Shown piece after piece: positions 20,611 through 59,605 of a DNA stretch of 64,000 nt (position 1 is its first letter; every line of letters begins with the position of its first letter). This DNA comes from Methanoregula sp. (lineage in GTDB: Archaea; Halobacteriota; Methanomicrobia; Methanomicrobiales; Methanospirillaceae): NCBI GenBank assembly GCA_039698055.1, contig JBDKTL010000010.1, positions 1 through 64,000 of the forward strand. The letters run 5' to 3'. A program made the position numbers and the translations under genes. The notes below the pieces were generated by a model. It did not search any database and was not told the origin of the DNA. It worked only from the letters and a program-made list of their open reading frames with translations.

Positions 20611-20718
20611 TCGTCCCGTCCCGGTCGTGCTTTCCTGTGCAGGCAAACGCGGCGCACCTCTGATGATGGGTTTTTTAGCACGCTTGCCTATATGTAGACG
20701 GAAAACCAACACTTCTGC

Positions 20719-24169: not shown

Positions 24170-24174
24170 GGCGC

Positions 24175-24771: not shown

Positions 24772-24776
24772 GCTTA

Positions 24777-39528: not shown

Positions 39529-40263
39529 TTACCGTTGTCTCACAACAGACTGATCGGTCGTGATCTTGGTAGATTTGAGAATTTCGTAGACTTCAGGGAA
39601 ATTGAGAGTTGGATTATTAATTGTCACAATATAGAACGTCCCGTCGACTGCGACAAAATGGTACCATCGCTCTATCGTTTTTGATTTAAATTCAAGATTG
39701 TAATCTTTACAAACAGCCTTGGAAAGGGAGCATTCATCAATACCCTTTAATCCCGTTTGCGTAGTCTGGGTGATCGTGACTTCCCCATACGTGGTTAAAA
39801 CTGCCGCTGATGCCACATTGAAATAATGTTCATTATCCGACACAGGTTGTGGATCAACGTCAATGCTTATGGTCGTGTAGGGATGGCCGTCCGGATCTAA
39901 TTCTGGGCTGAGCACACCGGGTGCAACGGGAGAGAAGAAATTTGCAATATTAATTGTGGTACGCCCATAATCTCTCATTGCTGTTACTTGGGGCTGTTCC
40001 AAATTCCAGCCGCTGGGATAGGAAAGGGTGACGTCGTTACTAAGACTTACCGCAGTCATCGCCGGCTGACTCGTTGTTGTCGTTGCAGCAGGAACGGGAG
40101 TCTGGATAACGGTCTGTTCTGTCATGACGGGTGCTGGAACGGTTGTTTGTTGGGGGGGAGTCGCGGGTGTTGCCGGTGACGTACACCCTGCAATAATCAC
40201 CGCACCTACAAGAACCAGGACGATACTCACCGTTCCCATAAAAAAATTACTTCGCATATTCAT
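39529..40263 (-). CDS. Putative lipoprotein
   Basis: IIAGC lipobox, Thr/Pro-rich linker, globular C-domain. Confidence 0.75.
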   Translation of the reverse strand: MNMRSNFFMGTVSIVLVLVGAVIIAGCTSPATPATPPQQTTVPAPVMTEQTVIQTPVPAATTTTSQPAMTAVSLSNDVTLSYPSGWNLEQPQVTAMRDYGRTTINIANFFSPVAPGVLSPELDPDGHPYTTISIDVDPQPVSDNEHYFNVASAAVLTTYGEVTITQTTQTGLKGIDECSLSKAVCKDYNLEFKSKTIERWYHFVAVDGTFYIVTINNPTLNFPEVYEILKSTKITTDQSVVRQR

Positions 40264-40457
40264 TACAATCCCAGAGCAGAAAATGATTTTATCGGTTTAA
40301 TAAAATTCCGATTTAATTTTTTTTAATATATTCTTGCAAGGCGTATACCGGGAAAATGTTAAACAAAGAACTATCTCCGCTAAGAGGACTCCGGGCTTTG
40401 TATTCTCCACCAACACCTTTAAGGGAAAATACGTCGACTGATTCGGGGGTAATACCA

Positions 40458-40817
40458 ATGACGGATGAAATTATTATGGTAAGTACGCCGTATCTTCCCG
40501 GCTATAAGATCGCAAAAACCATCGGGTTTACCTGGGGGCTCATCGTGAGAAGCCGGGGGCTTGGCAGGAACATAACCGCCGGCCTCCGGTCTCTTGCCGG
40601 TGGAGAGATCCACGAATATACCGAACTATTGAACCAGTCGCGTGAACAGGCGCTGGGCCGGCTTAAGGATCATGCAAAAGAGCTGGGTGCAAATGCGGTC
40701 ATCGGCGTACAGTTCGATTCATCAGATATTGGCTACATGACCGAACTGCTCGCGTACGGAACGGCAGTTGTTGTTGAAAAAGAGAGCGAGAAAACAAGCC
40801 CGGTCAGGCTCGGGTAA
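40458..40817 (+). CDS. YbjQ/UPF0145 family protein
   Basis: GLRSLAGGEIHEYTELL..SREQA...GANAVIG...AYGTAV. Confidence 0.9.
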   Translation: MTDEIIMVSTPYLPGYKIAKTIGFTWGLIVRSRGLGRNITAGLRSLAGGEIHEYTELLNQSREQALGRLKDHAKELGANAVIGVQFDSSDIGYMTELLAYGTAVVVEKESEKTSPVRLG

Positions 40818-40988
40818 AAATCGCTTTTTTTGGTTCTTTCTTTTTTTAGTTGTCGATACCTGCGATACTTCAAAAAATTCTGATACGCTGACAGTTGATC
40901 TCGTATTTTTATTTTTAATTCCCTGTTCATCTACCAACGTACCAAAATCCAATATTTCATTATTAAAGGTGTGCTAAAAAAAAGATTC

Positions 40989-41555
40989 TTATTTTCTCGT
41001 AAACGAGACCAGCTTGATCGTATAGGTAAGGTTCTCTCCTGCCAGCGCATGGTTCTCATCCACGGTCACGGATGACTCCGTGATATTGATCACCTTGAAA
41101 ACGGTTGTCGCGCCATCGGACGCCCTGCTCGAAGTATAGGTCCCGCCCGGCACCAGCGACAGGTTGGCAGGGAAGAGCGATCGATCCACGACATGGATAA
41201 GCGAAGGCTGGTAAAGGCCGTAGGCTTTTTCAGCGGGAATATGAATGGTTTTTGTCTCGTTTGCACCCATACCAACAACAGCGGCCTCAAAACCCGGGAG
41301 GACCTTGCCCTCCCCGATGTTAAAAACAATCGGGGTCCCGTTCACATTTGAACCAAAAACCGTACCATTGTCAAGCATCCCGGTATAATAGACCGTAACC
41401 TGATCGCCGGCCCGGGCCACAAACGGGTTGAACAGGATAAACAAGATAATCGCAGCAACAATCACAATTGCCCCGGCAACAATACCCACAGTCCGGTACT
41501 GCCGCTTGCGGATGGCAACCTTCTCTTTTCCCTTGACCTTTTCCGATTTCTTCAT
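40989..41555 (-). CDS. FKBP-type peptidyl-prolyl isomerase (SlyD-like) with N-terminal TM anchor
   Basis: YTGMLDNGTVF, IPAEKAYG, VDENHALAG. Confidence 0.88.
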   Translation of the reverse strand: MKKSEKVKGKEKVAIRKRQYRTVGIVAGAIVIVAAIILFILFNPFVARAGDQVTVYYTGMLDNGTVFGSNVNGTPIVFNIGEGKVLPGFEAAVVGMGANETKTIHIPAEKAYGLYQPSLIHVVDRSLFPANLSLVPGGTYTSSRASDGATTVFKVINITESSVTVDENHALAGENLTYTIKLVSFTRK

Positions 41556-41664
41556 GATGTTCTTTAATTAGATATTCCGGTAAACCATATACAGTTGGTC
41601 ATAAAGAACTCACGAGTACCCCGCCCGGGAATTTTACAATAAAAAAAACGGTTTTGTGGACATC

Positions 41665-42762
41665 ATGGAGAGACAGGATAATGCCGGATTACTGGGAAAA
41701 GTATCAGCCCTGAGGCAGATGATCGCCGGGGAAATTCACACTGAGCGTGAACACCAGCGGGAATTGTGGGGCGGCGGGGCACGCGGCTGGCTCACCCTTT
41801 CCATTCTTGCCGCGTCCATCGTCTTCAACATCATGTTCCTGTTTGAGGATACATGGTATCCCATCTATTTCATCATCGCCAGTTTCTTTATCCTCATGTT
41901 CTATTTCATCACCCTCATCATCCCGTTTGGTATACTCCGGCAAAAAGGGGGATTTTCAAAACCCGAGATCGGTAAACTCTTTGCAAACCTCCAGAACCAG
42001 GGCATCATTAAAAGCGCCGAACGGTTCTCCCGGATATTCTTAAATGCGTTTTTTATCAACTGCCGGCCGCTGTTTGCCGGGTTTGCCCTTCTCTTTGCCA
42101 TCGACATTCTCTTTGTCATGTGGAAGCAATCGGATAACAGCCTGCCCGGGCCTACCGCTACCATCGTCCTTTTCCAGGCCATCACCATCATCGTCTTTTA
42201 TTTTCTTGTCTGGAAATGGCAGCAGTACTCGATGGATTTTTTCTCCGATGTCAAGGATATGCGCCAGCGGCTGATAACCCGTCAAATCCCCGCGTGGATC
42301 GTGACACTGGTGCTCTGGGTCAGCGTGGGGCTTGCGTTTTGCGGGGTTTTTTATTCCATCATCCTGCTTCCCGGGGTCACGGTAAGTTCTGTTATCTCCA
42401 TCTCGAGCCTTGAGCAGCTGAGCAACCGGTTTATCGCCATCGGCCTGATCCTTGTATCCCAGTATTTCATCTTCCGGTATATCCACGGCATCACCAGCAG
42501 GAAAATGATCGCCTCGTTTTCCGAGAGTAAAGCCCGCAGCCTTGCCCGGCAGGAAAACACGGCGGAGAAAATCTGTCGGGCAGAACAGGGCCTTGCACCG
42601 GGTACCGATATTGTCTGCGAGACAACGACGCTACTTTTAGAATCAAAAATTTACCAGATTGAGAAAAAGACCATTGCGGGAGCGTTTCCCGTCTATATCG
42701 TGAACCCGGATTTGTCGGTTGTTCTTGACCCGCAGGCACTGGATTCTATCGTTCCCCGGTAA
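41665..42762 (+). CDS. Uncharacterised multi-TM membrane protein
   Basis: Long ORF with about 6 hydrophobic segments. Confidence 0.75.
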   Translation: MERQDNAGLLGKVSALRQMIAGEIHTEREHQRELWGGGARGWLTLSILAASIVFNIMFLFEDTWYPIYFIIASFFILMFYFITLIIPFGILRQKGGFSKPEIGKLFANLQNQGIIKSAERFSRIFLNAFFINCRPLFAGFALLFAIDILFVMWKQSDNSLPGPTATIVLFQAITIIVFYFLVWKWQQYSMDFFSDVKDMRQRLITRQIPAWIVTLVLWVSVGLAFCGVFYSIILLPGVTVSSVISISSLEQLSNRFIAIGLILVSQYFIFRYIHGITSRKMIASFSESKARSLARQENTAEKICRAEQGLAPGTDIVCETTTLLLESKIYQIEKKTIAGAFPVYIVNPDLSVVLDPQALDSIVPR

Positions 42763-42918
42763 TCCGGCACGGCCATAAGAGGGGACGGGAAAAGTTTTAA
42801 CCGGAATACCGGTTTTAAGGTTTGTCCCGGCGAGACGCAAACCCGCCGGCCACCGTCCTGACCTTTAGCCATATTGTATTTTATTTATACCAAAACAACC
42901 CATTGGAGAGTAGTGCTT

Positions 42919-43809
42919 ATGTCTGAAGAATACAAGATCGCAGATGTCGCGGGGAAAAAAGTCCAGTGGGACCCTGAACAGATGCGTAAAATTCAGGAAC
43001 ACCCCTGTTTTTCTGAAAAAGCCTGTCATACCTTCGGCCGCTGCCATATTCCCGTCGCACCGAAATGCAATATCCAGTGCAATTACTGTATCCGGGATTT
43101 TGACTGCGTGAACGAGAGCCGGCCGGGCGTGACGACCCGTGTCCTGAACCCTGATGAGTCCATGGACATGGTAAAGAAGGTCGTCGAGAAATACAACTAT
43201 ATCAAGGTCGTGGGGATCGCCGGGCCCGGCGAGCCGCTGGCAAACGAAGAAACCTTTGAGACGCTCCGCCGGCTGCACGAACAATACCCGAACGTGATCA
43301 AGTGCATCAGCACCAACGGCCTGCTGCTGCCGGAAAAGATTGACCTGCTGCAGAAATACGATGTGGGCAATATCACCGTCACGCTCAACGCGATTGACCC
43401 GGAGATCGGCGCCAAGATCTACCAGTTCATCGATTACAAGGGCAAGCGGTACACCGGTCTTGAAGGCGCCAAACTCCTGCTCGCCCAGCAGATGAAAGGC
43501 ATCGAGATGGCAGTCGAGCGGCACATGATTGTGAAGATCAACACGGTCTATATCCCGGGCATCAACGAAGACCATATCCCCGCGATTGCAAAGAAAGTCG
43601 GCGAGATGGGCGTGTATACGTTCAACGTGATTCCGCTTATCGCCCAGTACAAATTCGCCAACATTACGCCGCCGACACCGGAGATGAAGCGGAAGATGCA
43701 GGACGAGTGCGGGAAATATGTCAAGCAGATGCGGCACTGCCAGCGCTGCCGTGCTGATGCTATCGGGAAACTCGGCCACGATGTGCAGTCGTGTATGTAC
43801 GAAAAGTGA
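42919..43809 (+). CDS. nifB: Nitrogenase cofactor biosynthesis radical SAM protein NifB (single-domain archaeal form)
   Basis: HPC, CNIQCNYC, ESRPG, AGPGE, TVTLN, CQRCRADA signature motifs. Confidence 0.93.
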   Translation: MSEEYKIADVAGKKVQWDPEQMRKIQEHPCFSEKACHTFGRCHIPVAPKCNIQCNYCIRDFDCVNESRPGVTTRVLNPDESMDMVKKVVEKYNYIKVVGIAGPGEPLANEETFETLRRLHEQYPNVIKCISTNGLLLPEKIDLLQKYDVGNITVTLNAIDPEIGAKIYQFIDYKGKRYTGLEGAKLLLAQQMKGIEMAVERHMIVKINTVYIPGINEDHIPAIAKKVGEMGVYTFNVIPLIAQYKFANITPPTPEMKRKMQDECGKYVKQMRHCQRCRADAIGKLGHDVQSCMYEK

Positions 43810-44092
43810 TAATCTTTTTTTTTTATAAACGATCTGGGCCGTCTCGCTCGATCTCTGCAATTCTGAATTAAGTGTCCATTGATTCTCAATATCTTTACCT
43901 CTAAAGAATGTTAAAACATCGAAATGGTTTGAGGTCTATTTTCAGGTCGCCCGGATATGATAATATTAAAACGTGGATGATGTTTGGTGGAGACAACGAG
44001 CAATTCGCCACACGGGAAAACCTGGAATTCGGCAAGAGACTTGATAAACCGATTATGGGATTTTAATCTCGATAAGTAAAGACACCTGATAA

Positions 44093-44662
44093 TCAATCTT
44101 CGAATTCGGTTAAGGTTCGATCTCTCCTAATTCCATCAAGCTCTTTACGGATGTCGATATAGAGAGGAACCGTATCACGCTCTTTTAATTTCTTAGGGTT
44201 TACAATAGCCTCATGAAAATCAAATTTTTTGTAGAACTCAGTGGCTTCCGGTTTTGCATCAACTGTAATAATCCTGCATCCAATATATTCAGAAAACTGA
44301 ATCCAGATGGCGAAAATCTTCATAAGCATATGCCGACCAATACCTTGCCGTTCATAATCATTGTGGGTAGCCAGTCGTGCGATTTTCAAGGCAGGATAGG
44401 TTGTGTGTGAAAAACCTGGATCTCCATCACCATCAGCAATTTCGATTTTTTTAATGACATCCGTTACCAGTGTGAAATATCCGACAAGTATCCCATCATA
44501 AAAAACAAGCCGTGTTACTGATACTCTCTCTATCTGATCCCGATATGCATTTTCAATTAAAAATCCTTTTAATTCAGAATTTTTACATTTAAACGTATCA
44601 AGAATGGGTAGATGATCTGCAGTAAGAACTAAAAAAGTAAGATCCTCAAAGTTAATGCTCAT
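44093..44662 (-). CDS. GNAT acetyltransferase, probable TA toxin
   Basis: FKC...L..FL, VGYFTL, YPALKIARLA, RQGIG, ITVDA, FYKKFDF. Confidence 0.85.
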   Translation of the reverse strand: MSINFEDLTFLVLTADHLPILDTFKCKNSELKGFLIENAYRDQIERVSVTRLVFYDGILVGYFTLVTDVIKKIEIADGDGDPGFSHTTYPALKIARLATHNDYERQGIGRHMLMKIFAIWIQFSEYIGCRIITVDAKPEATEFYKKFDFHEAIVNPKKLKERDTVPLYIDIRKELDGIRRDRTLTEFED

Positions 44663-44809
44663 TTAAAGTCGTGAGTTTTCAGCTAATTTCGCTGCATCCC
44701 GGATAAGCTGGCGACCTTCATGAGTATACTGTGGATTATCAATGTATTTTTGGAACCGTATGGACTCCTCTCTATCAAGGACAAGTCCCAATTCAATTTG
44801 TTTTGCCAT
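44663..44809 (-). CDS. 48-aa putative antitoxin (MAKQIELGLVLDREESIRFQKYIDNPQYTHEGRQLIRDAAKLAENSRL)
   Basis: Translated by hand; stop abuts the GNAT ATG; GGCGGT RBS; below the ORF track cutoff. Confidence 0.72.
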   Translation of the reverse strand: MAKQIELGLVLDREESIRFQKYIDNPQYTHEGRQLIRDAAKLAENSRL

Positions 44810-45068
44810 GTTTGACCGCCTTCTGCTTATTCTTCTTATGTTACTGTATAACTCGACTTTAGTTTATATATTTGTGTGTGTGTCAACGGCAAGGTTAATT
44901 TTTTACCACGGTTTACAGTCACTACATGGCCGGATGATTATAAACACAAAATCTCCGGATTGTATCAACAATCATGGAGCCCTGGTACGACAGGATCATT
45001 TTCAATGAATCCATCAGCTCCCACTAGAGAACCAGGAAAACCATCCCGGTGCAAAGAAAAAAGATTTT

Positions 45069-45155
45069 TCACGCCTTGATGCTGACCGTTGGATGTTCCA
45101 TCGTTGGAATCGATGTGTTGTCAAGGATGTGGTTCAGCCCGGAAATTGCCGGTTG
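45069..45155 (-). pseudogene. Diverged copy of the 3' end of the lipoprotein gene at 48798-49283
   Basis: QPAISGLNHILDNTSIPTMEHPTVSIKA* vs QPVLSALNHILDNTAIPVTEYPTLNIRT*; 63/87 nt identical by hand, no indels. Confidence 0.85.
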
Positions 45156-45172
45156 ACGCCGTGGGGTGAACG

Positions 45173-45285
45173 TGCAGGACGAGTGCGGGAAATATGTCAG
45201 GCAGATGCGGCACTGCCAGCGCTGCCGTGCCGACGCAATCGGGAAACTCGGCCACGATGTGCAGTCGTGCATGTACGAGAAGTGA
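45173..45285 (+). repeat. 113-bp direct repeat of the nifB 3' end (43697-43809)
   Basis: 107/113 identical by hand alignment; both copies followed by a poly-T tract. Confidence 0.95.
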
Positions 45286-45347
45286 GAATATTTTTTTTTA
45301 ATCGGTTTAACCAAAACGGATTTCTATCACTGGGAACACGCGATAAA

Positions 45348-48300
45348 TCACTCCCCCGCATCCTTCCACCGCCACGCCCCTGTCGGCACCGTAATCTCGA
45401 ACCGTGCCCCTTTACCCGGTTCACCGTTCTCAATAATCGTGATGCCCGTGATGGCGAGAATCTCCCGCGAGAGGAAAAGACCAAGACCCGTATGGTGCCC
45501 GAAGCCCCGGGTGAAAAGTTTCTTTTTGTCCTCGGCGGAAATACCCACACCGTCATCCTCGCAGACAATCAGGAGACTCCCCTCGATCTCCTGGGAAAAA
45601 ACCCGGATCGACTTCATCCCTGCCCCGCCGTAGTTGAGCGCATTGTCGATCAGGTTGTAAAAAACTTTCTCGAAAAGCCGGTCGGCAAAGATCTCCGGGT
45701 TTTTGGGATCGACCTCAACACGGACATCCCGCATCGGCAGCCCCAGCACGGCCTTTTCGATGTTGGCGTTCACGTTCTGCCATTCAGGCGACGCGGTACC
45801 CAGTTCCTGGTAATCCCGCGTGAACGTAATCTGGTGCTCGATGGCATTCGCCACCTGCTCCTCTTTTTCGATATAGCCGGCAAGGATCGCGGGATTGTTA
45901 ATCACCTCGTGCGAGAGGAAGAGATATCCTTTGAGCCCCATCAGCTGGTTGAGGATGTCGTGCCGGGTAATACTTGAGAGAATGTTTAACTGTTTGTTCA
46001 CCTGCCGCAACGCATCCTCCATCCGCTTGCGTTCCGAGATATCCACGTAAGCGCCCAGCACCCCGTTGATCCCGCCTGATGAATTTCGCAGCGGTGTTTT
46101 GCTGGTAAGCAGCCAGATAGTCCTGCCATCGGGAGTTGTCTGCGGTTCCTCGCTGAGTATTTTGGTTTTACCGGTATCTATCACCAGTTGATCGTCGGCC
46201 CGGTATAATTTTGCCTGATCGCGCCACCCCATCTGGTAATCGTCTTTTCCGATCAGTTCCTCCGGTTTATGGAATCCTGCATCCCGGGCAAACGGCTCAT
46301 TACATCCCAGGAATTTAAGGTTGCGATCTTTCCAGAAAACCCGCACCGGGATCGTGTCCAGCACACTCCGGAGGATCTGCTGCGAGTTGTAGAGCGCCTC
46401 TTCCATCCGCTTGCGTTCCGTGATATCCTGGTTGGCACCGTGGGTTTTAACCGTCCTGCCCTCAGCATCTTTGGTAATCCTGAACCGCACGATGATGTGG
46501 CGCACCTCGCCATCCCTGCGGATGATCCGGTGCTCGATCTGCGTCGTATAGTTCGGGTCAGGGGCAGCTATTGCCTTTTGCACTTCATCAAAGACAACGT
46601 TTGCATCATCCGGGTGAACGAATTCCCGTGTATATACTTCTGCCGGCATCTGGTACCCGCCTTCCCGCTCCGCCGTTGTGGCGAACAGGGCATAGAACCG
46701 GTCATTGAACGTGAAGATGCCCGTCAGGACGTCATACTCCCAGTGCGCTATGAGTGCGAGGTTCATTGCGTCGGTGAGCTGGATCTGGCTTGACCTCAGT
46801 GCCTCTTCTGCCCGTTTGCGATCCGTGATGTCCAGCGAGATGTTTGCCATGAACTGCGGTTTTCCGGTGGCAGGGTCGGCAATGGTGAACGTCATGGCAT
46901 GCACGTCAACCGGCTTACCGGTTTTTTGATTTTTATACTGGAGATCGCCGCTCCATGTGCCATGTTCGATAAGTGACGGCATGATTTCGTTCTGGATTTT
47001 CTCTTTGAGATGATCGGAGACATACCGGAAGAAATCCTCACCAATGGCATCTGCCGGCAGGATGCCCAGCATCCGGGCTCCCGCATCGTTGAGGAAAGAA
47101 ATCTTTTTATCAAGGGTTACAATACCGATAAGTTCGCCGGAGTACCGGACGACGGAAGCAAGTTCCTGGAGTTTTGCCTCTGCCCGTTTCAGTTCGGTAA
47201 TGTCCCGTATTGTCCCCTGGAATCCGATAAGATTGCCGTTTTGATCCCTTCGCGCAACGGTGGTAACGAGAGCATGGATAATTGTCCCGTCCTTTTTGCG
47301 CAGGTCAACCGGAAATTCCTTTGAGAATCCCAGTTCCGTAATAATTTTCAGGTGCGCAATCCGGTCATCGGGATGTGCATAGAGATCGGAGATCTTACCC
47401 TGCATCAGTTCTTCCCGGCTCTCGAACCCGAAAAACTCAGCCGCGGAGGTATTGGAATCAATCCAGTGCCCATCTGCCGACGTGATAAAAACACAGTCCT
47501 GCGATGTCGTAAAGAACGCCCGGAATTTCTCTTCACTTTCCAAAAGCGCCTTTTCAGCACGTTTTCGTCCGGTGATGTCCCGGATAAAAACGATAAACTG
47601 CTTTTTTTGCGACTGGAGGACTGCGCTTATTTCAACATCAATCGTCCCGCCGCTTTTTGTACGGTGCCGGGCATCAAACCGGTCGGAACCGGTGGCGAGA
47701 ATTTTCTGCAGGTGCGCCAGAGCGACGGTGTTGTTTTCATCCGCATCCAGTTCGGAAATGGATTTCCCCAGCAGTTCCTCGCGGGAAAACCCGGTCATCC
47801 TGCAGTAATTGTCATTTACTTCGATCAGCCTGCCACTGGCATCGACAAGATGGTAACCGTCCTGCGTGGTCCGGAGAAGGGTTGAGTACCAGTCCGCATA
47901 TTCCCGGGATATCTGCCCGATATTTTCGCGATCGGTGATATCGACCCCGATTGCGATATAACTGCCAACGACACCATCGTCAGGCAAACCCCGGGTATTC
48001 CAGACAATGGTTTTCTTTGTCCCGTCTTTGCTGACAATGGTGGTCTGCATGTTTTCGAGGTAATTGTCCTGTTTTATGATCGCTTTAATCTTTTCGGTGA
48101 TCTCACGCCGGTACATTTTCTCCGGGTAGAGACGTTTCCATATCCCGGTATCGCCGATCACCTCCGTTGCCGGATATCCGCTGATCTTCTCTGCTGCCCG
48201 GTTCCATCCAAGGACCTGCCCGTTGGAATCAAGCACCATCAGCCAGACATTGGCATTGTCGATGATGCTTTTTTCGTATTCGTGGGCAATCCGGTAACTC

Positions 48301-48644
48301 TCTTTCTTTTTTACCAGCCGCTCCGATAGTTCCGCAACCACAAGGCCAATCAGGATGAACATGCCGGTGCGAAGTATCGCCGCCTCGATCTCAATGGTTG
48401 AAGAGTACAAAAAAAACATCGCGAGGGCAAGGTAGAGAATTGCAAGGCCGGTGAAATACGGAATTCCGCGCCGGGAGTAAAAATAGGCGATCAGGATAAT
48501 GGGCAGGTAGTAGAGGTGCATGAAGACGGTGTTTATGCCCAGCAGAAAACAAACGAGCGTGAGTCCTATAGCAGCAATTGTCACAAACGTTATGATGGGG
48601 AGTACAAAAGACTCGGGGATTAAATCATCAGGTGCAGACCGCAT
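45348..48644 (-). CDS. Membrane-anchored multi-PAS sensor histidine kinase
   Basis: N-terminal TMs, repeated PAS/PAC (DITxRKRAE), SITRHDILNQL H-box, NLIDNA, DDGVGI, TGLGLFL. Confidence 0.92.
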   Translation of the reverse strand: MRSAPDDLIPESFVLPIITFVTIAAIGLTLVCFLLGINTVFMHLYYLPIILIAYFYSRRGIPYFTGLAILYLALAMFFLYSSTIEIEAAILRTGMFILIGLVVAELSERLVKKKESYRIAHEYEKSIIDNANVWLMVLDSNGQVLGWNRAAEKISGYPATEVIGDTGIWKRLYPEKMYRREITEKIKAIIKQDNYLENMQTTIVSKDGTKKTIVWNTRGLPDDGVVGSYIAIGVDITDRENIGQISREYADWYSTLLRTTQDGYHLVDASGRLIEVNDNYCRMTGFSREELLGKSISELDADENNTVALAHLQKILATGSDRFDARHRTKSGGTIDVEISAVLQSQKKQFIVFIRDITGRKRAEKALLESEEKFRAFFTTSQDCVFITSADGHWIDSNTSAAEFFGFESREELMQGKISDLYAHPDDRIAHLKIITELGFSKEFPVDLRKKDGTIIHALVTTVARRDQNGNLIGFQGTIRDITELKRAEAKLQELASVVRYSGELIGIVTLDKKISFLNDAGARMLGILPADAIGEDFFRYVSDHLKEKIQNEIMPSLIEHGTWSGDLQYKNQKTGKPVDVHAMTFTIADPATGKPQFMANISLDITDRKRAEEALRSSQIQLTDAMNLALIAHWEYDVLTGIFTFNDRFYALFATTAEREGGYQMPAEVYTREFVHPDDANVVFDEVQKAIAAPDPNYTTQIEHRIIRRDGEVRHIIVRFRITKDAEGRTVKTHGANQDITERKRMEEALYNSQQILRSVLDTIPVRVFWKDRNLKFLGCNEPFARDAGFHKPEELIGKDDYQMGWRDQAKLYRADDQLVIDTGKTKILSEEPQTTPDGRTIWLLTSKTPLRNSSGGINGVLGAYVDISERKRMEDALRQVNKQLNILSSITRHDILNQLMGLKGYLFLSHEVINNPAILAGYIEKEEQVANAIEHQITFTRDYQELGTASPEWQNVNANIEKAVLGLPMRDVRVEVDPKNPEIFADRLFEKVFYNLIDNALNYGGAGMKSIRVFSQEIEGSLLIVCEDDGVGISAEDKKKLFTRGFGHHTGLGLFLSREILAITGITIIENGEPGKGARFEITVPTGAWRWKDAGE

Positions 48645-48797
48645 AACGTATCGCTACTCAACATCTACCGACCGGATAATGTAAGTTGCGGTGCCAAAAT
48701 GTTAGTCATGCGAACATTTTTATAAATTTTGTATTTGCGGGCTGCCCCCACCGTAAAATCAGGAAAACTGTTCCGGGCAAAAAGAGGAAAAAAAATT

Positions 48798-49283
48798 TTA
48801 AGTTCTGATGTTGAGTGTCGGATATTCCGTAACGGGAATCGCAGTATTGTCAAGGATATGGTTCAACGCAGAAAGTACCGGTTGAAGCCCCGGGGGAATT
48901 GCCGTATCTTCCGTCGTAACGGTCTTGCCATGATAACTCACGGAGTACCCGATCAGGTCGGCACTGCCACGCGGTGCCGGGTAATTGGTCTGGAGCCCTG
49001 AGAACTCCGCCTTGTCAAACAATGCGGTTATGCGTGCAAGATCGGTTGCGTTGAGCTCGAGTTCGCTGCTGCCCGATTTGCCTGAGATCACCGCCATCCC
49101 GTTATCGAATACCACCAGCCGTTCGTCAAGGCCCGCGATCCCGCCGGTCCGGTGGTAGTCAACAAAGACTGCCGGCGGCACCGGTTTTGATACTGCGGGT
49201 ATTCTTGTCGTGATACACCCGGCAGACAGGACGATTGCCGCGATAATAAAAAGACACAGGAACATCCATTTTTTTATGATCAT
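48798..49283 (-). CDS. Putative lipoprotein
   Basis: LSAGC lipobox, YHRTGGIAG motif; GGAGGG RBS. Confidence 0.8.
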   Translation of the reverse strand: MIIKKWMFLCLFIIAAIVLSAGCITTRIPAVSKPVPPAVFVDYHRTGGIAGLDERLVVFDNGMAVISGKSGSSELELNATDLARITALFDKAEFSGLQTNYPAPRGSADLIGYSVSYHGKTVTTEDTAIPPGLQPVLSALNHILDNTAIPVTEYPTLNIRT

Positions 49284-49330
49284 CCCTCCGTTTTTTTTAC
49301 GTACTGCCACCCGTATTCCTGCCCGCCGGT

Positions 49331-49660
49331 TCAGATCTGGAGAACGTCAGCCTTTGCAGATTTCCCCGCCACCTTGCGCTCCGGGAGGACATCTTCAAGC
49401 GCCGTTATCAGGGCATCGACCTTTTCGTTGGAGAACGTTGTGCGGAATGCCGCCAGTTCAGCCCGGTTCATGATCATGATACCTTTCTTTTTCATCGGGA
49501 GACCTGCATCCCCGATCGGGTTGATATCGATGGCCAGGGACGCTGCACGGTTTTTTGTTGCGGGAAGCCGGATAATGGAGACGCCCTTTACCGAGGTTTG
49601 TTTGCGTTCCCAGTCCTGGCCTTCTTCAATAAATGTTTTGAGGGTTTCCGTCAATTCCAT
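49331..49660 (-). CDS. Conserved-looking hypothetical protein
   Basis: ORF MELTETLK...GQDWERK...IDINP...KKKGIMI. Confidence 0.7.
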   Translation of the reverse strand: MELTETLKTFIEEGQDWERKQTSVKGVSIIRLPATKNRAASLAIDINPIGDAGLPMKKKGIMIMNRAELAAFRTTFSNEKVDALITALEDVLPERKVAGKSAKADVLQI

Positions 49661-49834
49661 GAACAGAACTATGGATTTATATATTAAAATGCTATTCGTT
49701 CCGGGTTCATCCTCCAACCGGCTGTTGTGGTTTCATCGCCCGGCTCTTGTATTCCCTGAGCGGGATTTTGTCCTGCAAATATATCCTTAAGAGACCCGGT
49801 GACCCAAGCTTAGTTTACCCATAAGGAAAATCCC

Positions 49835-50686
49835 ATGTCCACGCTCGTTCTCCACGCCGACCAGCCCTTTTCCCTTGACCGGACGCTGGGGTGCGGGCAG
49901 GTGTTCCGTTGGGACAAAACGCCGGACGGGTGGTGGTACGGTGTTGTCGGGGGGCGGGTGATCAAATGCCGGCAGGACGGTTCCACGCTGACCTTCACGG
50001 GAGCCCCGGCATCGGTCATCCGGCACTATTTTTCGCTCGACATGGACCTTGATGCAATCACGGCGTCGTTTGACCATGACCCGTTTATCCATGCCGCAAT
50101 CGGACAGTGCCGGGGTTTGCGCCTGATCCGGCAGCCGGCATGGGAGTGCCTGTGCTCCTACATCTGTGCGACCAACTCCAACATTCCCACGATCCGGCGA
50201 CGGATTGCCGCCATCGCAAAGGAGTTTGGCAACGAGATCAGGTTTGAAGGCCGGCAGTACTCCACATTTCCCGAACCGGACAGTATTTCCTGCTGCGGTA
50301 ATGACGATGCCCTCGCGGGCTGCAAACTCGGGTACCGCACCCCGTACATCTTTAAAACGGCCTGCCGGATCGCGGGGATGAAGGACTGGGCACAGACCAT
50401 TACCTCACTCCCCTACGAGGACGCCCGGCGCGAACTGGTGAAATGTGCCGGTATCGGGCCAAAGGCGGCGGACTGCATCCTGCTTTTTGCGTTCCAGAAA
50501 TACGAATCGTTCCCGGTCGATGTCTGGATACGGCGGATCATGCGGGACCACTATATCCCGGCGTTACGCAGCGAGTCTGCCCTCACGGGACGGGAGTACG
50601 ATACCATCCGAAGGTTTGCACGCCGGAAGTTTGGGAACTATTGCGGGTATGCGCAGGAATACCTGTACGCCGCACGGGAAGGATAA
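49835..50686 (+). CDS. 8-oxoguanine DNA glycosylase (Ogg1-like HhH-GPD)
   Basis: TLGCGQVFRW, GIGPKAADC, FPVDVWI, GYAQEYLY. Confidence 0.9.
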   Translation: MSTLVLHADQPFSLDRTLGCGQVFRWDKTPDGWWYGVVGGRVIKCRQDGSTLTFTGAPASVIRHYFSLDMDLDAITASFDHDPFIHAAIGQCRGLRLIRQPAWECLCSYICATNSNIPTIRRRIAAIAKEFGNEIRFEGRQYSTFPEPDSISCCGNDDALAGCKLGYRTPYIFKTACRIAGMKDWAQTITSLPYEDARRELVKCAGIGPKAADCILLFAFQKYESFPVDVWIRRIMRDHYIPALRSESALTGREYDTIRRFARRKFGNYCGYAQEYLYAAREG

Positions 50687-50693
50687 AAAAAGT

Positions 50694-51920
50694 TTACGTG
50701 CCGATATCCCAGCTGCACAGGTATTTTTCCTGGGCGCCGCTGAGTTTGTCAATCGAAAGTCCCAGTGTCGATAATTTCAGCCGGGCAACCTGCTCGTCGA
50801 TCTCCCGGGGGACTTCGTACACGCCGCCTTTGAGGGTTTCCCCGTTTTCCGCAATATAGCGGGTGCAGAGCGCCTGCAGGGCGAAACTCAGGTCCATGAC
50901 CTCGATGGGGTGACCCATGCCCTTAGGTGTTGCAAGGTTCACGAGCCGGCCTTCCGCAAGCACGTGAACGGCTTTTCCTTTGATGACGTAGGTCATGATA
51001 CCGTCGCGCTCAACGGTGGAATCGGCATGTTTGCCAAGCCAGCCGATATCGATCTCCACGTTGAAGTGCCCGGCGTTTGCGAGGATTGCGCCCTCTTTCA
51101 TCTTGCCGAAATGCTGTTTACCGATCACGCTGGTGTTGCCGGTGGTGGTGACAAAGATATCGCCAATCGCGGCTGCGTCGTCCATCGTCATCACGAGGTA
51201 GCCGTCCATGTGGGCTTCCAGCGCACGGCGCGGGTCGATCTCCGTGACCACGACTTTTGCGCCAAGGCCGTGGGCTTTCCTTGCCAGGCCCCTGCCGCAG
51301 TACCCGTACCCGGCAACGACGAAATATTTGCCGGCAACGAGCGTGTTGGTGGTGATCATGATCGAGGACAGCACGCTCTCCCCGGTCCCGTGAACATTGT
51401 CAAAAAACCGTTTCATGGGCGTATCGTTGACCGCAACAACCGGGAACTCCAGTTTGTTCTCGGCGGCCATGGACCGGAGCCGGTGAATCCCGGTGGTGGT
51501 TTCCTCGCAGCCCCCGATAATATTCTTGAGCAGGTCGCGGCGCTTGGTGTGGAGGTAGTGGATTAAATCCATCCCGTCATCGATGGTAATGGACGGGGAC
51601 GCTTCGAGCACCTTGTCGATGGCTTCATAATATTCTTCGACCGAACAGGCACGCTTCGCGTAGCAGTGCACGTTTTTTACCGTGTTGAGCGCTTCTGCCA
51701 CATCGTCCTGTGTCGAGAGCGGGTTGCATCCCGTGATGTAGACCTTTGCCCCGCCGGCGGCAAGTGCCTTGACAAGGTTTGCAGTCTTTGCTTCGACATG
51801 GAGGGCCATGCCAATGGCCATGCCCTTGAATGGCTTATCCTTCTCAAACTGTTTTTTTATTGCGGCAAGCACCGGCATGTATTGTGCCGCCCACTCCATT
51901 TTCAGCGTTCCGGAACTCAT
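50694..51920 (-). CDS. ahcY: Adenosylhomocysteinase family protein
   Basis: LHVEAKT, CNPLSTQD, EETTTG, GYGYCGRG, NAGHF, EGRLVNL, GHP. Confidence 0.95.
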   Translation of the reverse strand: MSSGTLKMEWAAQYMPVLAAIKKQFEKDKPFKGMAIGMALHVEAKTANLVKALAAGGAKVYITGCNPLSTQDDVAEALNTVKNVHCYAKRACSVEEYYEAIDKVLEASPSITIDDGMDLIHYLHTKRRDLLKNIIGGCEETTTGIHRLRSMAAENKLEFPVVAVNDTPMKRFFDNVHGTGESVLSSIMITTNTLVAGKYFVVAGYGYCGRGLARKAHGLGAKVVVTEIDPRRALEAHMDGYLVMTMDDAAAIGDIFVTTTGNTSVIGKQHFGKMKEGAILANAGHFNVEIDIGWLGKHADSTVERDGIMTYVIKGKAVHVLAEGRLVNLATPKGMGHPIEVMDLSFALQALCTRYIAENGETLKGGVYEVPREIDEQVARLKLSTLGLSIDKLSGAQEKYLCSWDIGT

Positions 51921-52147
51921 GAAATGCTCCTGATGCGGTCAGGTGTTTTTGTGCACCCAATCACAAGCGTTCCCTATGATGTGGGTGACCGGATTACATA
52001 AAAACTCCCCGGTTTTTTTTTTGGAGCGCCATAAAAAGCCTTGTTCCGCAGGCGCAGGCTGACCCCATCGTGGGGCAGAAAAAACGGATGACAGACTTTT
52101 TACCCGTTGCATTAATATCCCGCCCCGGCAAATTCCTCTCATAGAGT

Positions 52148-58028: not shown

Positions 58029-58478
58029 ATGTTCCTCCCATTGAACGAAAAGCAGTTCGGGTTCTGGAAGATGCGGCGCAGCGGGATGTCAAATATCTCA
58101 ATAGCGAACCTTATCGGGATTACCCGGCAGGGAGTATCGCAGGCACTTCTCGCGATGGATGAGAAGATAGAATCATCGCTGCGCGAGATGGCACAGGCCA
58201 ACCGGATCCAGATCGAAAAGATCGATGTAGAGCGGGGAGTCCTGTTCGGGAAATCGATCCCGTTCCAGACCAATGCATATATCTTTGTCTCGGAGAAGCA
58301 TGGCCTGCAGGTCTGGTACGAGCATGACGGCGATTGTATTTCCTGCGACGAATTCACAAAATGCATCGAGTTCATCTGGGACTTTGCAGCCGAGATGGGA
58401 ATAAAACTCGAAAAGACCCAGGACCCGACAAAGATGGCAGAGGAACTGCTTGCAAAGATCCGGGGGAATCAGGAATGA
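58029..58478 (+). CDS. HTH DNA-binding protein with C-terminal Cys cluster
   Basis: GMSNISIANLIGITRQGVSQAL helix-turn-helix; HxGDCxxCxxxxxC motif. Confidence 0.82.
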   Translation: MFLPLNEKQFGFWKMRRSGMSNISIANLIGITRQGVSQALLAMDEKIESSLREMAQANRIQIEKIDVERGVLFGKSIPFQTNAYIFVSEKHGLQVWYEHDGDCISCDEFTKCIEFIWDFAAEMGIKLEKTQDPTKMAEELLAKIRGNQE

Positions 58479-59605
58479 GCCACGTATCTGAAATTGCCAA
58501 ACACTGGCTCGGCCTGTGCCCGAAAGCACCGGTGTTCCGTGCTTCAGAGACAGGGATTGTTTCTCAACCGGATCCCGCCTATGAGGGAAGCCCGGATGGT
58601 GGGGGTGGCGGATCGGGAGCGATCCGGCGGGGAGCCGGGGCCGCGCTGTCCGGCACGAAAACACTGATCCATAACCGGCATCTCCTCTGGTTCTCACTCA
58701 TGATCGGACTTGTGCTGGCCGCAAACCTCATCGCCCAGTCGCTGCTCAATCTCATGTACGTTAACAGGGAACCAAACGTTGTCGTATGGCATGTCCTGAC
58801 GTGTATGATCGAACTCGGAACGGTGTTCTGCCTGGTATTCCTGCTGGCAAGTCTTGTTTTGAGCGTCTCTTCAAAGAAAGACCGTCCGGTCTCATTTGTT
58901 CACGGACTCGCGATGGCCAGAAAATACCTCAAACCACTTGCCACGTGGTCTGTCGTCATGGCACTCACGGGCACCCTGCTCTTCAACGCAGGCATGAGCA
59001 TGAGTTCATTGATGCCCTACTCTTTCAATATCTTTGAGAATTTTCAGCTGATCCTGTCCCACGTTCTCATCCAGTTCCCCTTCAACTGGACCCTCAACCC
59101 GGGAGTCTTTATTATTCATCCGATGATTGAGGGCACTCTTACGCTACCTGAGATGATGGGAGAAATGATGTGGATATCATATGTCGATACCCTGACCTTT
59201 TTTGCAATCAACATACTTCTGTTTCTCCTGACCCTGTTTGTCGTGCCCCTCATCGTGCTTGAGAAAAAAAGCCTGAAGGAGGCTGTTTTGGGATCATGTA
59301 CCATGATGAGAAAGGTCTGGGGCGAAGTAGCTGCCTGCGTTTTTTGCCTGGGAACTATCGTATGTGCTGCTTTCCTCATGTACCTGCTCTTCAATATGGC
59401 GCATGCGATGGTCACACCTCCCCTGGAGATCACCTGGCGCCCCACTGATGCGTGGCTCGCGGCAGGCGTCCTGTACGATCTTGCCCTGTCCAGCCTTGCA
59501 TTCGTTGCGGCAACTATCGGGGGAATTGCAGCCCTGGATCTCTACGATTTCGCAAAGACCGGACAGATGCCTGGACCCGCTGAAACGATCGGCGAGGCGA
59601 GCTGA
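58475..59605 (+). CDS. Multi-TM membrane protein, paralog 1
   Basis: Start MSHVSE (ATGA overlap); WLGLC N-terminal motif; LTLFVVPLIVLEKKSLKEAV. Confidence 0.82.
   Translation: MSHVSEIAKHWLGLCPKAPVFRASETGIVSQPDPAYEGSPDGGGGGSGAIRRGAGAALSGTKTLIHNRHLLWFSLMIGLVLAANLIAQSLLNLMYVNREPNVVVWHVLTCMIELGTVFCLVFLLASLVLSVSSKKDRPVSFVHGLAMARKYLKPLATWSVVMALTGTLLFNAGMSMSSLMPYSFNIFENFQLILSHVLIQFPFNWTLNPGVFIIHPMIEGTLTLPEMMGEMMWISYVDTLTFFAINILLFLLTLFVVPLIVLEKKSLKEAVLGSCTMMRKVWGEVAACVFCLGTIVCAAFLMYLLFNMAHAMVTPPLEITWRPTDAWLAAGVLYDLALSSLAFVAATIGGIAALDLYDFAKTGQMPGPAETIGEAS

What the first reader, a model, noticed from the sequence alone, without database searches (positions are those of the whole stretch)
43697..49283. 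Integrase-free tandem cassette locus: two cargos, each framed by the 3' ends of the same two convergent genes
Seen: the order is nifB(+) > GNAT TA module > lipoprotein-gene 3' end (45069-45155, -) > 17-bp junction > nifB 3' end (45173-45285, +) > multi-PAS kinase > intact lipoprotein gene (-). The unit [nifB 3' end | cargo | lipoprotein 3' end] therefore occurs twice in tandem, with different cargo and with terminator T-tracts retained. The nifB copy has 6 mismatches in 113 bp (5 synonymous, 1 K/R). The lipoprotein copy is 63/87 nt identical with no indels and conservative substitutions (17/28 aa identical). That pattern fits alleles from a related lineage under purifying selection better than a decaying local duplicate. 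No integrase or transposase is in the window. Inference: the nifB-lipoprotein interval is a swappable slot. A foreign version, carrying about 100 bp of both flanking genes, was added rather than exchanged, via a circular intermediate with a single crossover or via homology-facilitated illegitimate recombination. If this recurs, it is a cassette-stacking mechanism that uses core-gene ends as attachment sites.
Basis: partly seen in the sequence, partly recalled or inferred. Interest (0 to 1): 0.85.

Follow-up and report, generated by a model that had tools for sequence, protein, structure and literature searches.

The report
Two slot alleles stacked in tandem
In a Methanoregula-like archaeon, the gap between two convergent core genes holds two different gene inserts in tandem, separated by spare copies of both gene ends; this looks like a one-off recombination scar from taking up a relative's version of the locus, not a new mobile-element system.

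Summary
A second nifB 3' end (45173-45302, 93% identical) and a second lipoprotein-gene 3' end with its downstream spacer (45017-45166, 72%) lie back to back between a GNAT gene pair and a multi-PAS kinase. The "17-bp junction" is really 6 nt or less.

The inference that the spare ends come from a related lineage is supported.
- nifB copies differ by 5 synonymous changes and one K/R (dN/dS 0.04, p=0.006).
- The nifB and lipoprotein divergences (5.6% and 28%) fit between-species rates, not decay in place.
- The lipoprotein fragment matches another lineage's ortholog, P0002, at 22/32 residues against 18/32 for the resident gene.

The interval is variable across Methanoregulaceae: 11 of 57 loci carry about five other cargos.

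No spare gene end occurs in 0 of 79 related loci. The window has no integrase, tRNA or terminal repeats.

Only the nifB repeat has exact runs long enough for homologous crossover: 27-32 nt against 11 nt at most.

Most likely the ~1.5-kb GNAT unit was added by one homologous crossover in nifB plus one illegitimate joint. A general stacking mechanism is not supported.

The parts
42874..43809 (+). Intact nifB (311 aa, radical-SAM core only). Its last 113 nt (43697-43809) form repeat copy 1.
   Evidence: TIGR01290 at 351.6 bits against a cut-off of 343.65. 83-94% aa identity to 57 Methanoregulaceae-type loci.
43810..43826 (+). Spacer after the nifB stop with a T10 tract, shared with 45286-45302.
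   Evidence: Similarity ends at 43826/45302.
43827..45016 (.). Cargo 1: low-GC insert (0.35-0.41, flanks 0.52-0.55) holding the GNAT gene pair.
   Evidence: for composition. No similarity to any of 80 related loci within +-10 kb of nifB. No terminal inverted repeats.
44093..44662 (-). GNAT acetyltransferase, 189 aa, a candidate toxin.
   Evidence: Pfam Acetyltransf_7/_10/_1. Weak full-length similarity to PDB chains 6gts, 6ajn, 6ajm and 6gtq (E 2e-4 to 7e-4); I recall these as AtaT-type toxins. Homologs at 65-73% identity are named Methanoregula sp..
44663..44809 (-). 48-aa gene abutting the GNAT start; a candidate antitoxin with no known family.
   Evidence: for the ORF. No Pfam or NCBIfam hit.
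45017..45068 (-). Copy of the spacer downstream of the lipoprotein gene, with a T-tract on the minus strand.
   Evidence: About 70% identical to 48744-48797 with a 2-nt indel.
45069..45166 (-). Lipoprotein-gene 3' fragment: stop codon plus 32 codons, frame intact.
   Evidence: 72% nt and 18/32 aa identity to the resident gene. 22/32 to ortholog P0002. 9/32 or fewer to 54 other species.
45167..45172 (.). Novel joint between the two gene-end fragments: 6 nt or less, with at most a 3-nt GAA microhomology.
   Evidence: Base-by-base reading.
45173..45302 (+). nifB 3' fragment (36 codons plus stop, 45175-45285) followed by a T9 tract.
   Evidence: 93% identical to 43697-43826. 5 synonymous changes plus K/R. 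Exact runs of 27, 30 and 32 nt.
45348..48644 (-). Cargo 2: membrane multi-PAS histidine kinase (1098 aa) with host-like GC.
   Evidence: Pfam PAS matched in 5 stretches plus HATPase_c. GC 0.49-0.57. No ortholog near nifB in 80 loci.
48744..48797 (-). Resident spacer downstream of the lipoprotein gene.
48798..49310 (-). Intact lipoprotein-like gene (emfourin-like) with a hypervariable C-terminal tail.
   Evidence: Lipobox-like LSAGC in the N-terminus. Emfourin at 24.5 bits, below the cut-off of 27. Homolog clusters carry PF20242 and one is named protealysin inhibitor emfourin. Tail variability is shown.

Best explanation
The nifB-lipoprotein intergenic slot of a Methanoregula-like genome holds two alternative slot alleles at once.

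The resident allele carries the PAS kinase. A second allele, from a related lineage in the same small clade, carries a low-GC GNAT gene pair. It was added rather than exchanged.

The added piece is about 1.48 kb (43697-45172). It consists of the donor's last 113 nt of nifB, its terminator, the GNAT pair, the donor's lipoprotein terminator and the last 32 codons of its lipoprotein gene.

It entered through two joints:
- one homologous (homeologous) crossover inside the nifB 3' end;
- one illegitimate, near-blunt joint (45167-45172) between the donor's lipoprotein end and nifB codon ~275.

Two routes give this product. The fragment may first have closed into a circle and then integrated Campbell-style. 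Or a linear fragment may have been anchored by nifB homology and joined illegitimately at its other end (homology-facilitated illegitimate recombination).

Both flanking genes stay intact, and each unit keeps its own T-tract terminators.

Shown: the architecture, the foreign-allele nature of the spare ends, the lack of a recombinase gene, and the uniqueness of the arrangement among relatives.
Inferred: the order of events, the circle, and which cargo arrived second.
For: 1. Permuted order. The order is spacer-B | lipoprotein 3' | nifB 3' | spacer-A, with native orientations and a single novel joint of 6 nt or less. This is the signature of an insertion-duplication.

2. Selection on nifB. The nifB copies differ by 5 synonymous changes plus one K/R. 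dN/dS is 0.04, and only 0.6% of neutral simulations do as well. All 6 variant states occur in functional orthologs of the 47 in-register loci.

3. Unequal divergence. 6/108 vs 27/96 differences (Fisher p=1.5e-5). Even allowing the lipoprotein gene twice the rate, p=0.02. Pairs of distinct species with lipoprotein-tail identity of 0.69-0.82 show nifB-tail identity of about 0.75-0.98, leaving out pairs that involve the misregistered loci L021 and L046. The window pair (0.72, 0.944) sits in that cloud.

4. Little decay since the event. If the nifB fragment had decayed neutrally by 6-8%, 5-7 non-synonymous changes would be expected. One is seen (P=0.03-0.007).

5. Donor affinity. The fragment's tail matches ortholog P0002 from another genome at 22/32, the resident at 18/32 and P0003 at 17/32, among 120 homologs examined. 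It matches 54 species in the related loci at 9/32 or fewer.

6. Polarity. Exact runs of 27, 30 and 32 nt in the nifB repeat, against 11 nt at most in the lipoprotein repeat. The GNAT cargo has GC 0.35-0.41 against 0.52-0.55 in the flanks, while the kinase is host-like.

7. Variable slot. 57 of 80 loci have both genes. In 45 the stop-to-stop gap is 32-410 bp. One (L001) is adjacent but frameshifted. 11 carry 549-2176 bp holding PhzF-like, TetR+DUF362, NUDIX, an unknown 245-aa protein or a small zinc-ribbon ORF.

8. No mobility machinery. No integrase or transposase in 64 ORFs, no tRNA, no Rfam match and no terminal inverted repeats.
Against: - Taken alone, the lipoprotein fragment is not distinguishable from neutral decay (p=0.14-0.21).
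- The fragment carries more unique residues than either full-length relative, so some decay or a longer donor branch is needed.
- nifB 3' ends are so conserved that the two copies (6 differences) are no closer to each other than to the nearest other species (7-9 differences). nifB therefore cannot place the donor.
- No donor genome with a GNAT pair in this slot was seen. 0 of 80 loci hold a GNAT homolog within +-10 kb of nifB.
- The window probably comes from a metagenome-scale contig: the cluster of its lipoprotein lists a longest contig of 71,743 bp. Read support for the joint is unknown.
- A 113-nt, 94%-identical anchor is short for homologous recombination.
- Whether this organism takes up DNA is unknown.
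Confidence: 0.5

Rival explanations
1. Unequal illegitimate exchange between two co-resident chromosome copies carrying different slot alleles (heterozygous polyploid cell). One copy had first acquired the foreign nifB-GNAT-lipoprotein allele by ordinary two-sided replacement. A microhomology-level crossover between the lipoprotein 3' end of one copy and the nifB 3' end of the other then made a heterologous tandem duplication.
For: - It gives exactly the observed product, with one novel joint.
- It needs no circle and no short-anchor crossover.
- Tandem duplications formed by unequal exchange between chromatids during DNA uptake are documented in bacteria (PMC3784515, abstract and section 9 read).
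- The foreign-allele evidence fits equally well.
Against: - It needs two rare events and a persistent heterozygous state.
- Polyploidy of this organism is not known from any call.
- Nothing in the sequence separates this route from the best explanation.
Confidence: 0.15
2. In-situ history without a foreign donor. A ~285-bp tandem duplication of an empty slot (nifB end, spacer, lipoprotein end) was followed by separate insertions of the GNAT pair and the kinase into the two spacer copies, with divergence in place.
For: - Tandem duplication gives the same permuted joint.
- Most relatives have an empty slot of 32-410 bp.
- The lipoprotein fragment alone is compatible with neutral decay.
- The fragment's nearest relatives are the resident gene and its two closest orthologs.
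Against:
- The nifB fragment shows a selected substitution pattern (p=0.006).
- Both cargos sit at the same point of the spacer (after 17 nt on the nifB side and 52 nt on the lipoprotein side). That would need two independent hits at one site.
Confidence: 0.1
3. Assembly artefact. Two co-occurring strains or species with different slot alleles were stitched in series in a metagenome assembly.
For: - The source contig is probably metagenomic: longest contig of the own-protein cluster is 71,743 bp.
- The two units look like alleles of one locus from two lineages.
- No independent sighting of the joint. The junction-spanning 81-aa ORF has no counterpart among 5.8 billion proteins; the single hit, P0226, is an antisense-nifB ORF from elsewhere.
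Against: - The lipoprotein-nifB joint shares at most 3 nt, so graph or overlap assemblers have nothing to join on.
- Shared exact runs between the alleles are 32 nt or less, and they lie in nifB, not at the joint.
- A random chimeric read would not be expected to land within the allelic 100 bp in the correct orientation.
Confidence: 0.1
4. A dedicated, recurrent integrase-free or trans-acting cassette system. Small circles bounded by the ends of two convergent core genes act as mobile cassettes that stack at the slot, using the nifB 3' end as an attachment site.
For: - The slot is variable across the family.
- The window's nifB 3' end, in both copies, is much closer at third codon positions to L054 than the rest of the gene is: 29/35 and 31/35 against 0.50 over 275 codons, Fisher p=2e-4 or lower.
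- Among 703 pairs of 38 nifB sequences, the last 35 codons show such an excess in 4 pairs, against 0-1 pairs in each of seven internal windows.
- Three loci of another clade keep remnants of a divergent nifB around an intact one.
Against: - 0 of 79 related loci carry a spare nifB or lipoprotein end.
- No second such pair in the window.
- No recombinase, tRNA or conserved core site.
- Mismatches are spread over the whole repeat instead of flanking an identical core.
- The other cargos follow clades (PhzF in Methanoregula-type loci, NUDIX in L044, L046 and L047), as expected for vertical inheritance with loss.
- The third-position excess is small in count, and the last window is slightly more constrained overall (0.588 vs ~0.54).
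Confidence: 0.07

Closest known systems
Campbell-type insertion-duplication (single-crossover integration of a non-replicating circle) and homology-facilitated illegitimate recombination. Both recalled from textbook knowledge and from the work of de Vries and Wackernagel, not read here.
   Same: - The insert is flanked by direct repeats of the homologous segment.
- One intact and one truncated copy of the target gene.
- One homologous and one illegitimate joint.
- No element-encoded recombinase.
   Different: - The inserted DNA is the allelic version of the same intergenic slot from a related lineage, so a fragment of the gene on the far side is carried in as well.
- The anchor is only 113 nt at 94% identity.
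- It is seen in an archaeon, and as a natural product rather than a laboratory construct.
Tandem duplication / merodiploid formation, including duplication triggered by DNA uptake (Johnston et al. 2013, PMC3784515; abstract and section 9 read).
   Same: Head-to-tail units with a single novel joint, and a possible origin by unequal exchange between chromosome copies.
   Different: - The units here are 1.5 and 3.7 kb, not 100-900 kb.
- No flanking repeat such as an IS mediates the joint.
- The two units carry entirely different genes and 6-28% diverged ends.
Replacement flexible genomic islands and additive gene transfer through homologous recombination in flanking genes. PMC4033161 seen as a search listing only. 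PMC11375855: passages read.
   Same: - One chromosomal position between conserved genes holds different genes in different lineages.
- Crossovers are expected inside the conserved flanking genes.
   Different: Those models exchange one allele for another. Here both alleles were kept, and the scars (spare gene ends) are still visible.
Prophages and islands that target the 3' end of a protein gene and bring a substitute end, such as phage 21 and e14 at icd. The attachment site within icd is stated in PMC12803456 (passages read). The substitute 3' end with mostly synonymous differences is recalled.
   Same: The displaced native 3' end persists as a fragment downstream. The two ends differ mostly at synonymous sites.
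   Different: - No integrase here.
- No identical core flanked by divergent arms.
- Such elements do not explain a fragment of the neighbouring convergent gene at the far end of the insert.
GNAT-type toxin-antitoxin pairs (AtaT/TacT/KacT with DUF1778 antitoxins; names recalled).
   Same: A small upstream gene abuts a GNAT gene of about 190 aa. There is weak full-length similarity to PDB chains 6gts, 6ajn, 6ajm and 6gtq.
   Different: The 48-aa partner has no DUF1778 or any other family match. Toxicity is untested.

Membership tests
Campbell-type insertion-duplication | Insert flanked by direct repeats of the segment shared with the target | tested here: met
   43697-43826 and 45173-45302 are 93% identical and flank the 1.3-kb GNAT unit.
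Campbell-type insertion-duplication | Homology long and exact enough for a homologous crossover | tested here: inconclusive
   Exact runs of 27, 30 and 32 nt within 113 nt at 94% identity. The minimum length needed in this organism is unknown.
Campbell-type insertion-duplication | Circular intermediate | not testable with these tools
   Needs outward PCR or read evidence.
Simple tandem duplication | Two units of identical content at formation, diverging equally afterwards | tested here: not met
   The cargos are unrelated. The ends differ by 5.6% and 28% (p=4e-5 for equal rates). The nifB pattern is selected.
Integrase-mediated island at a gene 3' end | Tyrosine or serine recombinase gene in or next to the element | tested here: not met
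   0 of 64 ORFs in the 64-kb window match an integrase or transposase family. Elsewhere in the genome could not be tested.
Integrase-mediated island at a gene 3' end | Attachment repeats with an identical core | tested here: inconclusive
   Mismatches are spread along the repeat. The longest identical run is 32 nt.
Integron cassette array | IntI gene and attC sites bounding the cassettes | tested here: not met
   No integrase. No Rfam or structured repeat in 42500-49500. No inverted repeats at the cargo edges.
Replacement-type flexible island (variable slot between core genes) | The same flanking genes hold different content in related genomes | tested here: met
   57 of 80 loci keep nifB and the lipoprotein gene convergent. 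11 of the 57 carry about five other cargos.
Replacement-type flexible island (variable slot between core genes) | One allele exchanged for another | tested here: not met
   Both alleles are present in series in the window.
GNAT toxin-antitoxin pair | GNAT toxin with a DUF1778/RHH antitoxin encoded upstream | tested here: inconclusive
   The GNAT domain is met and the gene order is met. The antitoxin family is not met. PDB similarity to AtaT-type chains is only E~1e-4.
NifB | Match to the NifB equivalog model above its cut-off | tested here: met
   TIGR01290 at 351.6 bits against 343.65, covering model positions 3-280 of 441.

The most novel reading that the evidence does not exclude
Small circles bounded by the 3' ends of two convergent core genes act as recombinase-free mobile cassettes among Methanoregula lineages. 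They are cut out of one genome's slot and added to another's by a crossover in the conserved gene end, so slots can stack cargo. The window would be the first caught intermediate. The locally elevated synonymous similarity of nifB 3' ends between some species and the nifB remnants around intact nifB in L032, L034 and L035 would be older footprints of the same process.
Probability: 0.08. Interest if true: 0.8.

Novelty: new variant of a known kind. Interest (0 to 1): 0.4.

Why it matters
How accessory genes such as toxin-antitoxin pairs reach the same intergenic position in different genomes without any mobility gene is usually inferred, not seen. Clean exchange by recombination in the flanking genes leaves no trace.

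Here the trace survives. The incoming allele kept about 100 bp of both flanking genes, so three things can be read off:
- the donor was a related lineage;
- the entry point was the nifB end;
- one joint was illegitimate.

This is a concrete natural example of additive acquisition by flanking homology in a methanogen. It gives a testable prediction: single-allele relatives exist, and a 1.5-kb excision circle may be detectable.

It does not show a new mobile-element class.

Tried and rejected
- Spare gene ends in relatives. Each locus's own nifB end and lipoprotein end was searched against the whole locus by blastn with word size 7. 0 of 79 loci had a second copy. The only hits were six short (18-38 nt) inverted matches in L010, L016, L035, L037, L039 and L050.
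- Placing the fragments by blastn. Both nifB copies hit all 80 loci; the listed top hits are 85-94% identical, which is uninformative. Neither lipoprotein copy hit any locus.
- Junction-spanning ORF. The one hit, P0226, is an unrelated antisense-nifB ORF. This gives no independent sighting and no evidence either way.
- The listing of cluster members, to count contigs per protein. The database was switched off and the query was not made.
- Remnants of other loci's cargo in the window. The window has no trace of PhzF, NUDIX, TetR or DUF362 in the slot. The single weak hit lies at 20662-20763, outside the slot.
- Terminal inverted or direct repeats at the GNAT cargo edges: none convincing.
- tRNA and Rfam searches of the region: none.
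- Imprecise excision of an integrated element picking up the lipoprotein end. Rejected on gene order: that route would give cargo | nifB 3' | spacers | lipoprotein 3', whereas the window has cargo | spacer | lipoprotein 3' | nifB 3'.
- General homogenisation of the nifB 3' end among species. Mean third-position identity is 0.588 in the last 36 codons and about 0.47-0.64 elsewhere, so any effect is slight.
- Literature. Searches found no description of stacked heterologous slot alleles bounded by both flanking gene ends. These four word searches do not prove absence.

Full report
WHAT IS THERE

The window region reads as follows:
- nifB (+, 42874-43809)
- T-tract
- a low-GC block with a GNAT gene (44093-44662, -) and an abutting 48-aa gene (44663-44809, -)
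- a 286-nt stretch with no gene of its own (45017-45302)
- a 1098-aa membrane multi-PAS histidine kinase (45348-48644, -)
- a lipoprotein-like, emfourin-like gene (48798-49310, -)

The 286-nt stretch is made of two pieces.
- 45017-45166 is 72% identical to 48744-48895. That region is the last 32 codons, the stop and about 52 nt of downstream spacer of the lipoprotein gene.
- 45173-45302 is 93% identical to 43697-43826. That region is the last 36 codons, the stop and the T-tract of nifB.

The blastn E-values are 1.7e-16 and 2e-52. Both pieces keep the orientation of their parent genes, but their order is swapped relative to the native nifB-then-lipoprotein order.

The joint between them is 6 nt or less (45167-45172) and shares at most GAA with both parents.

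WHERE IT COMES FROM

A scan of species-representative genomes with NifB returned 80 loci. Most are titled Methanoregula, Methanoregulaceae, Methanolinea or Methanoculleus, and NifB identity is 70-94%.

The order FKBP-isomerase gene (-), nifB (+), lipoprotein gene (-), a 128-aa gene (-), ogg (+) is widely kept.
- 57 of 80 loci have both nifB and the lipoprotein gene.
- In 45 of these the stop-to-stop gap is 32-410 bp.
- One (L001) is adjacent but frameshifted.
- 11 have 549-2176 bp.
- Of the 23 loci without a lipoprotein-gene hit, several contigs end soon after nifB, and the Methanoculleus-type loci have ogg directly after nifB.

The larger gaps hold:
- a PhzF-like gene, intact in L003 and L064 and decayed in L006, L020 and L026;
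- TetR plus DUF362 (L031);
- a NUDIX NADH-pyrophosphatase-like gene (L044, L046, L047);
- an unknown 245-aa protein (L053);
- a small zinc-ribbon ORF (L045).

None holds the kinase or the GNAT pair. The window's 4988-bp content is the largest seen.

IS THE DOUBLING SEEN ELSEWHERE?

No. Each locus's own nifB end and lipoprotein end was searched against the whole locus. 0 of 79 loci had a second copy, while the same script recovers both repeats in the window.

A self-comparison of the window found no other pair of this kind. In 22 of the 80 loci (1.26 Mb searched in all) it found direct repeats away from the slot. Most have short spacing, which suggests tandem repeats or paralogs; I did not examine each one.

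ARE THE SPARE ENDS FOREIGN ALLELES OR LOCAL DECAY?

nifB
- There are 6 differences in 108 nt: 5 synonymous and one K/R. dN/dS is 0.04.
- In 20,000 simulations placing the same numbers of transitions and transversions at random, 0.6% kept 35/36 residues or more without a stop.
- All 6 variant states are found in functional orthologs of the 47 loci that align in register; R at the K/R site occurs in 9 of 47.

Lipoprotein
- There are 27 differences in 96 nt, and 18/32 residues are identical. dN/dS is 0.33.
- This is not significantly better than random: simulated mean 16/32; p=0.14 when absence of a stop codon is also required, 0.21 without that condition.

The two fragments together
- Under in-situ duplication both would be the same age and both would be neutral.
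- 6/108 vs 27/96 rejects equal divergence (p=4e-5).
- If the nifB fragment had decayed neutrally by 6-8%, 5-7 non-synonymous changes would be expected against 1 seen (P=0.03 to 0.007).
- The pair of identities (0.72, 0.944) falls within the cloud formed by pairs of different species. Pairs with lipoprotein-tail identity of 0.69-0.82 show nifB-tail identity of about 0.75-0.98, leaving out pairs that involve L021 and L046, which my script misregistered.

Affinity of the lipoprotein tail
- The tail is hypervariable. The fragment matches 54 species from the loci at 9/32 or fewer, and the resident tail matches them at 13/32 or fewer.
- Among the 120 best of 195 homologs from the large protein collection, the fragment matches P0002 best. 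P0002 is an 80%-identical ortholog from another genome. The scores are 22/32 for P0002, 18/32 for the resident and 17/32 for P0003. The resident matches P0002 at 23/32.
- The fragment therefore represents a third lineage within one small clade.
- This does not by itself exclude retention of ancestral residues. With the nifB evidence, however, it favours a donor from a related lineage and a recent event.

WHICH WAY DID IT GO IN?

The nifB repeat contains exact runs of 27, 30 and 32 nt. The lipoprotein repeat never exceeds 11 nt. A homologous crossover is therefore only plausible in nifB.

That makes 43697-45172 the added unit: the GNAT pair with both donor gene ends, 1476 bp from repeat to repeat. 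This fits its GC of 0.35-0.41 against 0.52-0.55 for the flanks, while the kinase is host-like.

Both cargos sit at the same point of the ancestral spacer, 17 nt after the nifB stop and about 52 nt after the lipoprotein stop. This is expected if they are alternative alleles of one slot.

The second joint is illegitimate. The sequence cannot tell whether the fragment first closed into a circle, was anchored as a linear piece, or arose by unequal exchange between two chromosome copies with different alleles.

WHAT IS ABSENT

- No integrase or transposase family among 64 ORFs of the window.
- No tRNA in 40000-52000.
- No Rfam match in 42500-49500.
- No terminal repeats at the cargo edges.

Imprecise excision of an integrated element is rejected on gene order; it would place the nifB end before the lipoprotein end.

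THE CARGO

The GNAT protein has weak full-length similarity to PDB chains 6gts, 6ajn, 6ajm and 6gtq (E 2e-4 to 7e-4). I recall these as AtaT-type toxins. The partner has no family. "Toxin-antitoxin" is therefore plausible but unproven.

Homologs at 65-73% identity are common, and several are named Methanoregula sp. One 99%-identical copy sits on a 958-bp contig. The pair circulates within this group of methanogens despite its low GC.

ARTEFACT?

The cluster of the window's own lipoprotein lists a longest contig of 71,743 bp, so the source is probably a metagenome contig.

A strain chimera would need an assembler to join two sequences sharing 3 nt or less at the joint. That is unlikely but cannot be excluded without reads.

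The junction-spanning ORF has no counterpart in the protein collection, which is uninformative. The cluster look-up that might have counted contigs was unavailable.

HINTS OF SOMETHING MORE GENERAL (WEAK)

- The window's nifB 3' end is far closer to L054 at third codon positions than the rest of the gene is: 29/35 for the full copy and 31/35 for the fragment, against 0.50 over 275 codons (Fisher p=2e-4 or lower among 39 comparisons).
- Across 703 pairs of 38 nifB sequences, such a local excess (p<0.001) occurs in 4 pairs in the last 35 codons. It occurs in 0-1 pairs in each of seven internal windows.
- This could reflect occasional recombination patches ending in the nifB 3' end. But counts are small, and that window is slightly more constrained overall (0.588 vs about 0.54).
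- In L032, L034 and L035, an intact Methanoregula-type nifB is flanked by remnants of a much more divergent nifB. This is another case where a nifB-bearing piece was added, leaving scraps of a homolog around it. It is a different and older event.

COMPARISON WITH KNOWN THINGS

The product is what a Campbell-type single crossover or homology-facilitated illegitimate recombination would give (recalled textbook knowledge). It resembles small-scale merodiploid formation (PMC3784515, abstract and section 9 read).

It sits within the idea that added genes often enter by recombination in flanking genes (PMC11375855, passages read), and within the idea of replacement-type flexible islands (PMC4033161, search listing only).

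It resembles prophages that bring a substitute 3' end for their target gene. The attachment site within icd is stated in PMC12803456 (passages read); the synonymous-difference detail is recalled. It lacks their integrase, and they cannot explain the lipoprotein fragment.

What is unusual is that two alleles of one slot were kept in series, with scars from both flanking genes, in an archaeon.

VERDICT

- The foreign-allele reading is supported.
- The slot is variable.
- The event is best read as a single additive recombination accident, not as evidence for a new stacking mechanism.
- Interest is moderate.

Noticed in passing
L032 10001-10111 and 11402-11650; L034 5006-5176; L035 3689-3784 and 5099-5343: In three loci of a clade that lacks the lipoprotein gene, the intact Methanoregula-type nifB is bracketed by remnants of a much more divergent nifB. 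A piece matching residues 198-234 (51% identical, with an in-frame stop in L032) lies upstream. A piece matching residues 238-303 (33%) lies 136-305 nt downstream. The remnants are 65-81% identical between the three species, so the event is old. It looks as if a complete nifB with its own promoter was inserted into a resident homolog near codon 235.
   Followed up: partly
window 23159-25250 (-): Bacterial-type RuvB, RuvA and RuvC genes lie in a row (Pfam RuvB_N 4.7e-77, RuvA_N 1e-20, RuvC 6.2e-53). This is unusual for archaea but already reported for Methanoregula boonei and Methanospirillum hungatei as a likely transfer from bacteria (PMC3403352, passages read). It fits the taxonomic placement and bears on how this organism resolves recombination intermediates.
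   Followed up: partly
window 48798-48895 and the lipoprotein tails of 54 loci: The last ~20 residues of the emfourin-like lipoprotein are hypervariable in sequence and length between species whose NifB is about 90% identical. The upstream motif (PP.LQPVI.ELN.I) is kept. This could reflect diversifying selection on a protease-inhibitor-like surface protein. It is not explained.
   Followed up: no
window 43699-43806 and 45175-45282 vs L054 10824-10932: Both window copies of the nifB 3' end share 83-89% of third codon positions with L054, while the first 275 codons share 50%. L054's lipoprotein is only 44% identical. This suggests a recombination patch confined to the nifB end.
   Followed up: partly
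L006 10940-11798, L020 1888-2686, L026 10904-11897: The PhzF-like gene that fills the slot intact in L003 and L064 is broken into several short frames in these three loci. Cargo in this slot decays in place as well as being gained.
   Followed up: no
window 58334-60756 (+): Two adjacent paralogous genes (423 and 383 aa, DUF6159 C-terminal domain) are 70-74% identical at the DNA level over about 900 nt. This is an ordinary tandem gene duplication, unrelated to the finding.
   Followed up: no
window 42874-43809: The NifB here is the short form: 311 aa matching positions 3-280 of the 441-position model. No nitrogenase family appeared among the Pfam hits for the 64 scanned ORFs of the window.
   Followed up: no
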